DNA from: a virus
Taxonomy: Duplodnaviria; Heunggongvirae; Uroviricota; Caudoviricetes
DNA length: 64,000 bases
IMG/VR virus record: IMGVR_UViG_2875697941_000001
Direction: 5' to 3' (one strand)
Position 1 is the first letter of the stretch. Each line of letters starts with the position of its first letter. Shown in pieces: positions 34,247-35,311 of this stretch. Both the position numbers and the translations under genes were made by a program. The notes below the pieces were generated by a model that ran no database searches, was not told where the DNA came from, and was given only the letters and a program-made list of their open reading frames with translations.

Positions 34247-34786
34247 CTACCACCAACTGCTAGCTTTCTTCTCTCTAGCTTTTCCTTCGCTTTGCAGTAA
34301 ATCTTTACTTCCTGTAGAAATATTTCTATTTGCATCAGCCTCAGACTGAATTACATCTGTCTTAGCTGCTCTCTCCTTCAACTCCTGCTCTATAAAATCG
34401 TTTTCTCGCTGGACACGAGCCGCTTTTGCTTGCAGTTCGAGTTTCATGCTTTCGAGTTGCAGCTTGCGAAGCTCATCCTCATAAGCTTGATCTCGCTTCT
34501 TGTCATTTGCTAGCTCGGCTTCTCGTTTCGCTCTACGTTCATTTTCTGCAGCAACACGCTGTTTTTCGCGTGCAGCAGCGGCAGATGCTGCTTTTTCTCT
34601 TCTAATACGTTCAGCTTGTGCTTGTTGGCGAATAAGTTCTTTTCTGGCATCCTCAGCTTGCTGCTCTTTAGCTCGCCCTTCATTTTCCGCTTGAGCAATA
34701 GCAGCAATTTGACTTTGCAACGAGTTAGCCAAGGCAGTGCCTACACTAAACGTAGAAAAGATTAGAAATAAAATAATTTTATTCAT
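34247..34786 (-). CDS. Exported coiled-coil protein, 179 aa
   Basis: N-terminal signal peptide (MNKIILFLIFSTFSVGTALA), then Ala/Glu/Arg/Lys/Gln-rich coiled coil; AT-rich region. Confidence 0.5.
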   Translation of the reverse strand: MNKIILFLIFSTFSVGTALANSLQSQIAAIAQAENEGRAKEQQAEDARKELIRQQAQAERIRREKAASAAAAREKQRVAAENERRAKREAELANDKKRDQAYEDELRKLQLESMKLELQAKAARVQRENDFIEQELKERAAKTDVIQSEADANRNISTGSKDLLQSEGKAREKKASSWW

Positions 34787-34789
34787 AAA

Positions 34790-35311
34790 TTATTTCTTTT
34801 CTGGACAAGTAGCATTTGGCTGAATTCGAGTTTCATTATCTTTAGTTGAAATAAGCACAGCAAGCCCCGTTGTAAACTGGCATGCTTTACCAACTTGAGT
34901 TGAAGTGAACACCTTAGTTCCTTCTTTATAAGTCAGTGAAACACCTTCAACAATTGTTTTATCACTAACCAAAGAACCAGCCGCTGCACCAAGAGCCGCA
35001 CCACCAGTACCGCCAGCTACAGCACCCAGTGTCGATGTGCCTTTAACATTATAACCGGCAACGCCCCCAGCAACAGCTCCCAGTACCGCACCAAATGTCT
35101 GTGCCGCTTCTTTATTAGCTTTATTATCAACTTTCACTTTAGCTGGAAGCACAGAGATAATATTGACTGTCTTTGTTTCCTGCTTCGAATTCAATTGAGC
35201 GGTATCATAAACATCGGCAGCATAATCAGCACCGCTAGATTGACACCCAGAAAGAAGAATTGCAGATACAACAAGAGCGCATAAAGTATACTTTTTAGAC
35301 ATAAGAATCAT
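34790..35311 (-). CDS. Lipoprotein with glycine-zipper domain (SlyB/Pcp-like)
   Basis: Lipobox LLSGC; glycine zipper GAVLGAVAGGVAGY...GAVAGGTGGAALGAAAG; start may be the internal ATG at 35302. Confidence 0.55.
   Translation of the reverse strand: MILMSKKYTLCALVVSAILLSGCQSSGADYAADVYDTAQLNSKQETKTVNIISVLPAKVKVDNKANKEAAQTFGAVLGAVAGGVAGYNVKGTSTLGAVAGGTGGAALGAAAGSLVSDKTIVEGVSLTYKEGTKVFTSTQVGKACQFTTGLAVLISTKDNETRIQPNATCPEKK

What the first reader, a model, noticed from the sequence alone, without database searches (positions are those of the whole stretch)
34247..35311. Exported lipoprotein plus coiled-coil protein, opposite strand, next to the immI control region
Seen: two AT-rich genes encode a glycine-zipper lipoprotein (lipobox LLSGC) and a signal-peptide protein that is almost entirely coiled coil. 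They are transcribed divergently from c4-icd-ant. In P1 this position holds the sim superimmunity genes, which I recall as co-oriented with c4 (uncertain). Inference: envelope-located cargo, plausibly superinfection exclusion.
Basis: partly seen in the sequence, partly recalled or inferred. Interest (0 to 1): 0.45.

Follow-up and report, generated by a model that had tools for sequence, protein, structure and literature searches.

The report
Phage-borne copy of yfgH–yfgI envelope genes
In this P7-type P1-like phage-plasmid the slot that holds the superimmunity genes (sim) in phage P1 carries instead a diverged, well-conserved copy of the bacterial outer-membrane-stabilising gene pair yfgH–yfgI; the genes were already annotated (function unknown), and their role for the phage is still untested.

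Summary
Two minus-strand genes at 34790–35311 and 34247–34786 encode a glycine-zipper lipoprotein and a signal-peptide, all-helical protein, divergent from c4-icd-ant. They are phage P7 genes upf50.5 and upf50.0 (98.7% DNA identity).

The 1376-bp cassette (34219–35594) replaces P1 simABC exactly between the LPsit late promoter and the C1 operator Op(c4).

The pair is a paralogue of the core E. coli operon yfgH–yfgI (67% and 47% protein identity). The lipoprotein belongs to the SlyB/YfgH family (profile to SlyB E 3e-9; Foldseek E 1e-6). The partner is DUF5384 (Pfam E 3e-43), modelled as one ~24-nm helix.

Three old alleles occupy this slot under strong purifying selection (dN/dS ~0.05). In PLSDB about 188 P1-like plasmids carry the cassette and 141 carry simC.

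Best reading (0.5): a lysogenic-conversion module that fortifies the host outer membrane. Rival (0.27): envelope-level superinfection exclusion replacing Sim. Every occupant of the slot is exported, but there is no homology to Sim and no phenotype data.

Verdict: a new member of a known kind, of moderate interest.

The parts
34790..35311 (-). Gene for a SlyB/YfgH-family glycine-zipper outer-membrane lipoprotein (phage P7 upf50.5). Probable true start is ATG 35302 (170 aa). Lipid-anchor Cys23, with two further invariant Cys (144, 169).
   Evidence: - ORF.
- 100% protein identity to P7 Upf50.5.
- 67% identity to K-12 YfgH, E 6e-73.
- Family profile matches SlyB 7OJF over its full length, E 2.8e-9.
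- Foldseek top and only significant hit is SlyB, E 1e-6.
- Invariant cysteines.
34247..34786 (-). Gene for a secreted DUF5384 (YfgI-like) protein (phage P7 upf50.0). It has a signal peptide followed by a single ~158-residue helix (~24 nm), and only the C-terminal ~80 residues are well conserved. It starts 4 nt after the lipoprotein stop, so the two genes form one operon.
   Evidence: - ORF.
- Pfam PF17358 E 3e-43, above the gathering score.
- 47% identity to K-12 YfgI, E 9e-46.
- AF2 single helix, pLDDT 87.
- Composition and heptad analysis.
- Conservation pattern.
34219..35594 (.). The whole 1376-bp cassette that differs from P1, where 1513 bp carrying simA-simB-simC occupy the same place.
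   Evidence: Local blastn of the window against P1 AF234172: homology at 33600-34218 (96.9%) and 35595-36197 (95.0%), with nothing in between. P1 annotation.
35312..35594 (-). Cassette-specific AT-rich (33% GC) upstream region that must hold the cassette's own promoter. The only consensus-like sigma-70 candidate on this strand is TAGATA-17-AATAAT at 35578->35550.
   Evidence: - Composition.
- Promoter scan, not above the shuffled expectation.
- No sigmaE, CpxR, PhoP, RcsB or SdiA-like motif found.
35375..35390 (.). A 16-bp palindrome, ATTGAY-N4-RTCAAT, about 73 nt upstream of ATG 35302. It is conserved in all three alleles that sit in the P1 slot. It could be an operator or a -35 element. Its function is unresolved.
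   Evidence: Upstream alignments; sequence check. It is absent upstream of K-12 yfgH and of the other mobile copies.
35593..35609 (+). C1 repressor operator Op(c4)/Op51 (CCTGCTCTAATAAATTT). It marks the right-hand boundary of the cassette: P1 homology resumes at its third base.
   Evidence: P7 annotation transferred by coordinates; sequence; boundary.
34198..34217 (-). Late promoter LPsit of the downstream pmgC/tub/sit operon, lying within the 18-nt inverted repeat 34167-34213. It marks the left-hand boundary: P1 homology ends at 34218.
   Evidence: P7 and P1 annotations; inverted repeat I1; boundary.
35670..35876 (+). Context only: the immI control RNAs, c4-a1b1 target element (35670-35722) and C4 antisense RNA (35791-35876), transcribed divergently from the cassette.
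   Evidence: Rfam RF03163 (55.5 bits) and RF01695 (69.6 bits), both above their gathering scores.

Best explanation
**What it is.** The two genes are phage P7 upf50.5 and upf50.0. They form a mobile, long-diverged paralogue of the enterobacterial envelope operon yfgH-yfgI, inserted as a self-contained cassette in the accessory slot between the immI control region and the late tail operon.

**Mechanism, shown by homology.**
- The first product is made with a lipoprotein signal peptide, acylated at Cys23 and sorted to the outer membrane (Gln at +2).
- Like its relatives YfgH and SlyB, it inserts a glycine-zipper helical hairpin into the membrane and keeps a small disulfide-stabilised beta domain.

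**Mechanism, inferred from SlyB structures and YfgH genetics.**
- It oligomerises into rings that corral lipid and porin nanodomains and keep the outer membrane intact under stress.
- The second product is exported by Sec and forms a highly charged helix about 24 nm long in the periplasm.
- Its conserved C-terminal third is the likely contact with the lipoprotein or the membrane. Its variable N-terminal half is a spacer.

**Biological role, inferred.** The cassette is expressed from its own promoter in the plasmid prophage. It adds a differently regulated dose of this membrane-stabilising module to a host whose own yfgH is nearly silent without stress. That would make the lysogen more tolerant of envelope insults such as bile or detergents, chelators, complement and possibly incoming phage. 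This is lysogenic conversion of the same general type as lambda bor or plasmid traT.
For: Identity:
- 98.7-99.5% DNA identity to P7, RCS47 and phi456; P7 annotation.

Paralogy to yfgH-yfgI:
- About 69% DNA identity to a locus present in 5420 of 5426 E. coli genomes.
- Same gene order and strand next to guaA.
- 67% and 47% protein identity.

SlyB family:
- Profile hit to 7OJF, E 2.8e-9, full length.
- Foldseek E 1e-6, probability 1.0.
- Predicted topology of beta-hairpin, helix-turn-helix and beta domain.
- Invariant Cys144 and Cys169.

Partner protein:
- DUF5384, E 3e-43.
- Single helix, pLDDT 87.
- Narrow length distribution, median 179 aa.
- Always adjacent to the lipoprotein in P7-type, allele 2, allele 3, K-12, a Vibrio plasmid, Salmonella contigs and Xenorhabdus.

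Function of YfgH (bioRxiv 10.64898/2025.12.22.696046):
- It localises to the outer membrane.
- The deletion is SDS/EDTA-sensitive and leaky.
- It is induced on LpxC, LptD or BamA depletion, and overexpression rescues those depletions.
- It binds outer-membrane proteins.

Functional constraint and cargo nature:
- dN/dS 0.04-0.06 with near-saturated synonymous sites between slot alleles.
- GC3 of 24-31% against 47-53% in neighbours.
- Own 283-bp upstream region.
- sim-slot genes are non-essential for P1 growth (PMC10695390).

Why an extra copy could matter:
- Host yfgH is barely expressed in unstressed BW25113 (base mean 63, against 47,614 for slyB).
Against: - No experiment on the phage genes exists in the library searched.
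- Expression in lysogens is not shown, and no convincing promoter could be called.
- Every lysogen already has chromosomal yfgHI, so a simple second copy seems a weak selective reason.
- The position and orientation mirror a known exclusion locus, and all other occupants of the slot are exported proteins. That suggests a phage-directed rather than a host-directed role.
- Ring formation by YfgH itself is only modelled, not demonstrated.
- The monomer model here is of low confidence (pLDDT 54).
- Any physical link between the two proteins is inferred from gene adjacency alone.
Confidence: 0.5

Rival explanations
1. Envelope-level superinfection exclusion: a functional replacement of P1 Sim. The outer-membrane ring lipoprotein and its ~24-nm periplasmic helix would block a step between adsorption and DNA entry of incoming P1-like (or other) phages, or interfere with conjugation. 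The molecular activity would be the same as in the best explanation, but selected for defending the resident prophage.
For: - Same slot, same strand and same boundaries (LPsit and the C1 operator) as simABC.
- The slot is a recognised variable region of P1-like phage-plasmids (PMC9603915).
- It has at least four occupant types, and every encoded protein has a signal peptide.
- Three deeply diverged alleles sit in otherwise ~98%-identical backbones. That pattern is typical of immunity or exclusion loci.
- The phage copy is more than a spare of the host gene: 67% and 47% identity, synonymous sites saturated, and closer to Xenorhabdus and Enterobacter versions than to E. coli YfgH.
- There is a precedent and a possible distant homologue in TraT, an outer-membrane ring lipoprotein with chromosomal relatives. 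It has been co-opted by plasmids for surface exclusion, and also gives serum and some phage resistance (hhalign probability 85%, E 6e-6; PMC11733297 and PMC12658005).
- From my own knowledge, not checked here: P1 Sim is a processed periplasmic protein that blocks infection after adsorption.
Against: - No similarity to SimA/B/C at E<=0.1.
- No PADLOC hit.
- The Cor-type exclusion PHROG matches only the signal peptide, E 0.022.
- Purifying rather than diversifying selection.
- The chromosomal paralogues are not hits in RB-TnSeq, CRISPRi or Dub-seq phage screens that included P1vir. Visible scores are <=~1 against thresholds of >=4-5, but the held files are truncated and the columns were not identified.
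- Sharing a position is not sharing a function.
Confidence: 0.27
2. A lytic-cycle function. The pair would be transcribed with, or reading into, the late tail operon, and would hold the outer membrane together during virion assembly or modulate the final spanin-dependent step of lysis.
For: - The cassette lies directly upstream of, and on the same strand as, LPsit-pmgC-tub-sit.
- No intrinsic terminator separates it from that operon.
- YfgH-type proteins stabilise a stressed outer membrane.
Against: - LPsit lies downstream of the cassette, so the late promoter cannot drive it.
- P1 itself and about 141 P1-like plasmids lack the cassette and grow normally.
- The slot is non-essential for P1 plaque formation.
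- The same pair occurs on non-phage plasmids and on chromosomes.
Confidence: 0.08
3. A selectively neutral hitch-hiker: host DNA picked up by illegitimate recombination and carried along without function.
For: Low-GC accessory slot prone to gene turnover; a redundant host copy exists.
Against: - Both reading frames are intact and 100% conserved at protein level in more than 160 plasmids from Escherichia and Salmonella.
- dN/dS is about 0.05 between alleles.
- A conserved Shine-Dalgarno/start block and a conserved upstream palindrome are present.
- The cassette was not copied recently from E. coli, since synonymous sites are saturated against K-12.
Confidence: 0.03

Closest known systems
E. coli YfgH-YfgI (chromosomal operon next to guaA; S. 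Typhi orthologues srgI-srgL)
   Same: - Same two-gene order, spacing and lengths (172/179 aa against 170-173/179 aa).
- 67% and 47% identity.
- Same lipobox, Gly-zipper, two C-terminal cysteines and DUF5384 C-terminal motifs.
   Different: - Carried on a phage-plasmid in the sim slot.
- Much lower GC3 (24/31% against 43/49%).
- Unrelated upstream region with a slot-specific palindrome.
- Synonymous sites saturated relative to the host copy.
- Distinct hairpin-loop sequence (GYNVKGTSTLGAV against GHNVGSGSNSGTT).
- Regulation and phenotype unknown.
SlyB (PhoPQ-regulated outer-membrane lipoprotein; cryo-EM 7OJF/7OJG)
   Same: Full-length profile match and the only significant fold match. Same architecture: lipid anchor, beta element, glycine-zipper helical hairpin, beta domain.
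   Different: - Only about 25% identity.
- SlyB has no DUF5384 partner gene.
- Genetic suppressors differ: Mla pathway for slyB, clsA for yfgH.
- Oligomeric state not determined here.
P1 SimA/SimB/SimC (superimmunity / superinfection exclusion)
   Same: Identical genomic slot, strand and boundaries. Exported proteins. Non-essential accessory genes adjacent to immI.
   Different: No detectable sequence similarity. Three genes rather than two. Sim has no lipoprotein. No exclusion phenotype is known for the cassette.
TraT (IncF surface-exclusion and complement-resistance lipoprotein; 9FS5, 9E2V)
   Same: An outer-membrane lipoprotein on a mobile element, with chromosomal relatives, that forms membrane-embedded rings. 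Weak similarity over the Gly-rich hairpin and the following strands (Pfam 23.1 bits; hhalign 85%, 73 columns).
   Different: - Below the Pfam gathering score (31 bits).
- TraT is 243 aa with a large extracellular ring domain, whereas the SlyB-type domain is periplasmic (from the SlyB literature as summarised).
- No partner helix gene.
- Not a family member.
Prophage lipoprotein morons Bor (lambda) / Iss and exclusion lipoproteins Cor / Llp
   Same: Small prophage-encoded outer-membrane lipoproteins expressed in lysogens that alter surface properties (own knowledge).
   Different: No sequence relationship. The PHROG Cor match is limited to the signal peptide, E 0.022.

Membership tests
YfgH / SlyB-type glycine-zipper outer-membrane lipoproteins | Lipoprotein signal peptide with lipobox Cys and an outer-membrane sorting residue at +2 | tested here: met
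   …AILLSG|C23-Q-S; Cys23 is invariant in 37 homologues.
YfgH / SlyB-type glycine-zipper outer-membrane lipoproteins | Glycine-zipper (GxxxG/A repeats) helical hairpin | tested here: met
   Invariant G74, G78, G82, G104, G108. AF2 helices at 64-88 and 94-113. Pfam Gly-zipper models match only below their gathering scores (PF05433 18.2 bits against 24.2).
YfgH / SlyB-type glycine-zipper outer-membrane lipoproteins | Full-length sequence and fold homology to YfgH and SlyB | tested here: met
   YfgH 67% identity over 171 aa, E 6e-73. Profile against SlyB 7OJF, E 2.8e-9, residues 9-162. Foldseek 7OJF, E 1.1e-6, TM 0.50/0.59.
YfgH / SlyB-type glycine-zipper outer-membrane lipoproteins | Outer-membrane localisation and ring-shaped oligomers enclosing lipid or outer-membrane-protein nanodomains | not testable with these tools
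   Needs fractionation, cryo-EM or multimer modelling. Only a monomer model could be made.
DUF5384 / YfgI | Match to Pfam PF17358 above the gathering score | tested here: met
   147.8 bits against a cut-off of 25, E 3e-43, profile positions 4-145 of 145.
DUF5384 / YfgI | Sec signal peptide and location immediately downstream of a yfgH-type lipoprotein gene | tested here: met
   MNKIILFLIFSTFSVGTALA|NS. Adjacent in every locus examined.
P1 Sim superimmunity system | Homology to SimC (and SimA/SimB) | tested here: not met
   The best blastp E-value of either cassette protein against any Sim protein is 0.25. No DNA homology inside the cassette.
P1 Sim superimmunity system | Position between pmgC/LPsit and Op(c4), divergent from c4-icd-ant; exported product | tested here: met
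P1 Sim superimmunity system | Confers exclusion of superinfecting P1/P7 after adsorption | not testable with these tools
   Requires plating and transduction assays.
TraT surface-exclusion lipoproteins (PF05818) | Match to the TraT model above the gathering score, with the ~220-aa mature architecture including the extracellular ring domain | tested here: not met
   23.1 bits against a cut-off of 31, covering profile positions 74-160 of 214. hhalign gives 85% probability over only 73 columns. The protein is 173 aa against 243 aa.
Known anti-phage defence systems (PADLOC-DB 2.0) | Any component model matched | tested here: not met
   0 families at E<=0.1 for both proteins.
Cor / Llp-type receptor-blocking exclusion lipoproteins | Sequence match beyond the signal peptide | tested here: not met
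   phrog_1119 (Cor), E 0.022, residues 10-54 only.

The most novel reading that the evidence does not exclude
The mobile YfgH/YfgI-like pair is a previously unrecognised type of envelope-level exclusion or defence module. A SlyB-like outer-membrane ring, coupled to a periplasm-spanning ~24-nm helix, would physically prevent tail-tube or Sit-mediated penetration by incoming P1-like phages, or mating-pair formation. The c4|pmgC slot of P1-like phage-plasmids would then be a dedicated hotspot in which unrelated exported exclusion proteins (Sim, the SimC-like pair, the Ro157 pair, three YfgHI-like alleles) are exchanged. This would also suggest that chromosomal yfgHI and TraT-like genes have an unappreciated anti-invasion role.
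Probability: 0.2. Interest if true: 0.7.

Novelty: new member of a known kind. Interest (0 to 1): 0.35.

Why it matters
P1-like phage-plasmids are common in clinical and livestock Escherichia and Salmonella and often carry resistance genes. In PLSDB this cassette is the commoner occupant of the sim slot: about 188 plasmids against 141 with simC.

Knowing that it is a diverged yfgH-yfgI module, and that YfgH has just been shown to stabilise the outer membrane, turns two 'unknown function' genes into a concrete, cheaply testable hypothesis. These prophages either harden the envelope of their hosts (bile, detergent, complement, drug permeability) or exclude competitors.

It gives DUF5384/YfgI its first structural hypothesis: a ~24-nm periplasmic helix partnered with a ring lipoprotein.

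It also flags a propagated mis-annotation ('DNA methyltransferase', 'minor tail protein') in RefSeq and PHROGs.

Tried and rejected
- **TraT membership.** Pfam is below the gathering score, and hhalign gives 85% over 73 columns only. I kept it as an analogy or possible distant homology.
- **Cor/Llp-type exclusion lipoprotein.** The match is confined to the signal peptide.
- **Known defence systems.** No PADLOC hit.
- **Single-sequence search of PDB.** Nothing significant. Only the family profile found SlyB.
- **Promoter and regulator motifs** (sigma-70, sigmaE, CpxR, PhoP, RcsB, SdiA-like) upstream of the cassette. Sigma-70-like sites are not above the shuffled expectation, and no stress-regulon motif was found. 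The promoter remains unassigned.
- **Intrinsic terminator after the cassette.** None. The hairpin at 34167-34213 is the LPsit inverted repeat.
- **Identity of the ~102-kb Salmonella element carrying another copy (L007).** No megablast match in the phage collection.
- **Phage TL-2011b as a second phage family carrying the pair.** Rejected. The deposited record includes the host flank yfgG-yfgH-yfgI.
- **Literature on 'upf50'.** No relevant paper. The P1 genome paper (PMC523184) is not held.
- **Genome-wide phage-resistance screens.** yfgH and yfgI are far below the hit thresholds in the parts of the supplement that are held. The files are truncated and the columns were not identified, so this is only weak negative evidence, and it concerns the chromosomal paralogues.
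- **Fold search with the DUF5384 model.** Not attempted, because a single long helix gives meaningless matches.
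Full report

Yes. The ORF listing returns two adjacent minus-strand ORFs at exactly the reported coordinates: 34790..35311 (173 aa) and 34247..34786 (179 aa), separated by 3 nt.

The first protein:
- It begins MILMSKKYTLCALVVSAILLSGC-QS, a classical lipoprotein signal peptide with lipobox LSGC and Gln at +2.
- It contains a Gly/Ala-rich GxxxG run at residues 74-112.
- The second ATG (35302) is the more likely start. The block GGGATGATTCT(T/A)ATG is conserved between alleles, and RefSeq uses that start in the second allele.

The second protein:
- It begins with a Sec signal peptide (…VGTALA|NS).
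- AlphaFold2, given a 34-sequence alignment, models it as one continuous helix from residue 3 to 178, with mean pLDDT 87.
- It is 41% charged, and heptad-type hydrophobic positions are clear only around residues 92-135.
- 'All-helical, partly coiled-coil-like' is therefore more accurate than 'almost entirely coiled coil'.

Base composition:
- The genes are 42.0% and 43.5% GC, against 48.6% for the window.
- At third codon positions the contrast is strong: 24% and 31%, against 47-53% in pmgC, tub and ant1.
- The upstream intergenic DNA is 33% GC.

Rfam places the C4 antisense RNA (35791-35876) and its a1b1 element (35670-35722) on the plus strand. The divergent arrangement relative to c4-icd-ant is confirmed.

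**2. What is it?**

*Identity.* Megablast of 33600-36200 against phage records gives 98.5-99.5% identity over the full length to phi456, RCS47, JL22, P7 and SJ46. P1 itself matches only over the flanks (47% coverage). In the P7 record the two genes are upf50.5 ('outer membrane lipoprotein of unknown function') and upf50.0 ('membrane protein of unknown function'), each noted as similar to E. coli K-12 proteins.

*Swap boundaries.* Local BLAST against P1 shows that homology stops at window 34218, one base past the LPsit late promoter (34198-34217). It resumes at 35595, the third base of the C1 operator Op(c4) (35593-35609). The intervening 1376 bp replace the 1513 bp that carry simA, simB and simC in P1. 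The P1 annotation shows sim on the same strand as the present genes, divergent from c4.

*Chromosomal relatives.* A blastn search of 5,426 complete E. coli genomes finds a ~69%-identical locus in 5,420 of them, annotated yfgI and yfgH. It finds ≥99% copies in 182 genomes, almost all on plasmids. In a K-12-type chromosome the order is guaA | yfgI | yfgH | yfgG, with yfgH upstream of yfgI on one strand, as in the phage. Protein identities are 67% (lipoprotein against YfgH, E 6e-73) and 47% (against YfgI, E 9e-46).

*Family assignment of the lipoprotein.*
- The second protein matches Pfam DUF5384 at E 3e-43.
- A profile built from 37 lipoprotein homologues hits SlyB (PDB 7OJF/7OJG) over its whole length at E 2.8e-9.
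- The monomer AF2 model is poor (pLDDT 54). Its topology is still signal helix, β-hairpin, helix-turn-helix, β-domain, and Foldseek returns SlyB as the only significant PDB match (E 1.1e-6, probability 1.0).
- Beyond the lipid-anchor Cys, two further cysteines (144, 169) are invariant, consistent with a disulfide in an exported domain.

*Family features of DUF5384.* Members are conserved mainly in the C-terminal ~80 residues (DKKRDQxYEDELR … TDVIQSEADANRN.S.G..L..SEGKAREKKA..WF/WW). The N-terminal half is variable in sequence and has indels, but it is always a charged helix. Lengths cluster tightly around 179 aa.

**3. Distribution and evolution**

- tblastn finds the lipoprotein in 205 PLSDB plasmids: 163 at ≥99%, 5 at 95-99% and 20 at ~84%. 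Most are non-mobilisable 80-130-kb Escherichia or Salmonella plasmids, which are P1-like phage-plasmids.
- SimC is found in 141 plasmids.
- The 84% allele (pLR-25_1) sits in the same slot, with an extra DUF559/REase-like gene before pmgC.
- A third allele (88%, E. albertii and others) is also in the slot, followed by YfjT- and SH3-domain genes.
- Between alleles 1 and 2, synonymous sites are near saturation (pS 0.64 and 0.74) while pN is 0.08 and 0.12. That gives dN/dS of about 0.06 and 0.04.
- Against K-12, synonymous sites are fully saturated.
- The cassette is therefore old, functional and not a recent capture from E. coli. By identity it is nearer to Enterobacter, Xenorhabdus and metagenomic versions (70-77%) than to E. 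coli YfgH.

The pair also occurs elsewhere:
- on a Vibrio parahaemolyticus MPF_F plasmid;
- on ~90-102-kb Salmonella contigs with phage-like or Rep3 genes;
- in a chromosomal island;
- with a truncated partner, on a 7.5-kb ColE1-type plasmid next to a phosphoethanolamine transferase.

**4. The slot**

PMC9603915 lists simC-simB-simA as one of eight highly variable, low-GC regions of P1-like phage-plasmids. I found at least four occupant types:
- simABC;
- the YfgHI-like cassette (three alleles);
- a 212-aa protein plus a 35%-identical SimC-like protein in NZ_CP027575;
- two unrelated proteins (gp35, gp34) in Ro157c2YLVW.

Every one of these proteins starts with a signal peptide. P1 SimA (52 aa) is 92-93% identical to the N-terminus of the 212-215-aa proteins, so it looks like a remnant. 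The slot consistently carries exported proteins, yet the cassette proteins share no detectable similarity with any Sim protein (best E 0.25).

**5. What is known about the relatives**

*YfgH* (bioRxiv 10.64898/2025.12.22.696046):
- It fractionates with the outer membrane.
- Its deletion causes SDS/EDTA sensitivity, NPN uptake and loss of outer-membrane proteins.
- It is induced on LpxC, LptD or BamA knock-down, and overexpression rescues those knock-downs.
- It co-purifies with outer-membrane proteins, and clsA mutations suppress the deletion.
- AF3 suggests SlyB-like rings, though the authors state that oligomers are not demonstrated.

*YfgI and the operon:*
- A yfgI mutant shows 7% survival on nalidixic acid (PMC3536626).
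- The S. Typhi orthologues srgIL form an SdiA/AHL-activated operon (PMC11619404).

*TraT:*
- It is a decameric outer-membrane lipoprotein with many chromosomal relatives.
- It has been co-opted repeatedly by plasmids (PMC11733297).
- It is proposed to act by a generic effect on the cell surface, and it also gives complement resistance and some phage resistance (PMC12658005).
- The YfgH-family profile aligns to F TraT with 85% probability over 73 columns, but the Pfam score is below threshold. I treat this as an analogy and a possible distant relationship, not as membership.

**6. Mechanism**

Shown by strong homology:
- an outer-membrane SlyB/YfgH-type glycine-zipper lipoprotein;
- a secreted DUF5384 helix, co-transcribed with it.

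Inferred:
- ring-shaped oligomers that stabilise lipid and porin nanodomains;
- the ~24-nm helix (158 residues × 1.5 Å) acting as a periplasmic partner or spacer, with its conserved C-terminal third as the contact.

Biological role, inferred:
- My preferred reading (0.5) is lysogenic conversion by envelope fortification.
- The host's own yfgH is almost silent without stress (base mean 63, against 47,614 for slyB, in BW25113).
- The phage copy has an unrelated upstream region.
- The main rival (0.27) is Sim-like exclusion. It rests on position, orientation, the exported-protein theme of the slot, the deep allelic diversity and the TraT precedent.
- Against that rival: no Sim homology, no defence-model hit, purifying selection, and sub-threshold scores for yfgH and yfgI in the held parts of a 14-phage genome-wide screen.
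- That screen is weak evidence, because it concerns the chromosomal paralogues and the held files are truncated.
- The two readings are not exclusive, since TraT does both.
- A lytic-cycle role (0.08) and neutrality (0.03) are unlikely.

**7. Regulation is unresolved**

- The consensus scan finds one weak minus-strand sigma-70-like site (35578→35550), 15 bp from the C1 operator. The number of sites is not above the shuffled expectation.
- No sigmaE, Cpx, PhoP, Rcs or SdiA-like motif is present.
- Footprinting across alleles shows two conserved islands in otherwise diverged DNA: the Shine-Dalgarno/start block, and a 16-bp palindrome ATTGAY-N4-RTCAAT (35375-35390).
- All three slot alleles share that palindrome. 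The chromosomal and other mobile copies lack it.
- It may be an operator for a phage or host regulator, or part of a promoter.

**8. Novelty and verdict**

The genes and their K-12 similarity have been in GenBank since the P7 record. The sim region is known to be variable. YfgH function has just been described.

What is added here:
- the exact cassette boundaries at two regulatory sites;
- the SlyB-family and DUF5384 assignments for the phage proteins;
- evidence for three ancient alleles under purifying selection;
- the finding that this cassette outnumbers sim among sequenced P1-like plasmids;
- the exported-protein theme of the slot.

That makes it a new (mobile) member of a known kind, of moderate interest (0.35). 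It comes with a concrete experiment that could raise its importance if an exclusion phenotype appears.

Noticed in passing
window 34790-35311; RefSeq NC_050152, NC_042128, NC_031129, NC_019445; OR339795: The lipoprotein is labelled 'DNA methyltransferase' in RefSeq phage records and in PHROG phrog_1277. In phi456 the two genes are labelled 'minor tail protein' and 'tail tip protein'. Both labels are incompatible with a 173-aa lipobox/Gly-zipper protein 67% identical to YfgH, so this is a propagated mis-annotation.
   Followed up: partly
L018 (phage TL-2011b NC_019445, record 41360-42935): The deposited 'phage genome' ends with host genes yfgI, yfgH and yfgG (DUF2633) just beyond the lysis cassette. 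The record therefore includes chromosomal flank, which implies integration next to yfgI/guaA. This may be how yfgH entered PHROGs.
   Followed up: partly
L002 4403-4561 (P1 simA) vs L011 2654-3301 and L010 2758-3396: P1 SimA (52 aa) is 92-93% identical to the first ~40 residues of 212-215-aa exported proteins in Ro157c2YLVW (gp35) and plasmid NZ_CP027575. P1 simA therefore looks like a truncated remnant of a longer gene.
   Followed up: partly
L004 4389-5648; L012 5175-7298: Other alleles of the cassette are followed by extra cargo before pmgC. One carries a 419-aa protein with an N-terminal membrane segment and a DUF559/REase_MTES_1575 nuclease-like domain (weak PADLOC PDC-S37/Hhe matches). 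Another carries YfjT- and SH3_3-domain genes. The slot accumulates accessory and possibly defence genes.
   Followed up: partly
window 35375-35390: A 16-bp palindrome, ATTGAY-N4-RTCAAT, is conserved upstream of all three P1-slot alleles but not of the chromosomal or other mobile copies. It is a candidate operator or promoter element of unknown partner.
   Followed up: partly
L005 (NZ_CP073991, 7.5-kb ColRNAI mobilisable plasmid): A 75%-identical lipoprotein gene, plus a DUF5384 gene truncated at residue 127, lies next to a phosphoethanolamine transferase gene and IS1 on a small mobilisable plasmid. This is an envelope-modifying gene neighbourhood that may be worth a look.
   Followed up: no
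window 28281-32000 (-): The Sit (tape-measure/transglycosylase) ORF is 1239 aa. It contains a near-perfect internal duplication of ~100 aa near its N-terminus (…LKGERVATVDPVSRSVSALNRTIENSRPDFV.NAPSVDPIVDA.KRLNLGDVSR… occurs twice). The gene is longer than the P7 (3393 bp) and P1 (3423 bp) sit genes.
   Followed up: no
PMC7553319 supplementary RNA-seq tables: In E. coli BW25113, chromosomal yfgH is expressed about 750-fold lower than slyB (base mean 63 against 47,614). That is consistent with a stress-only role for the host copy.
   Followed up: no
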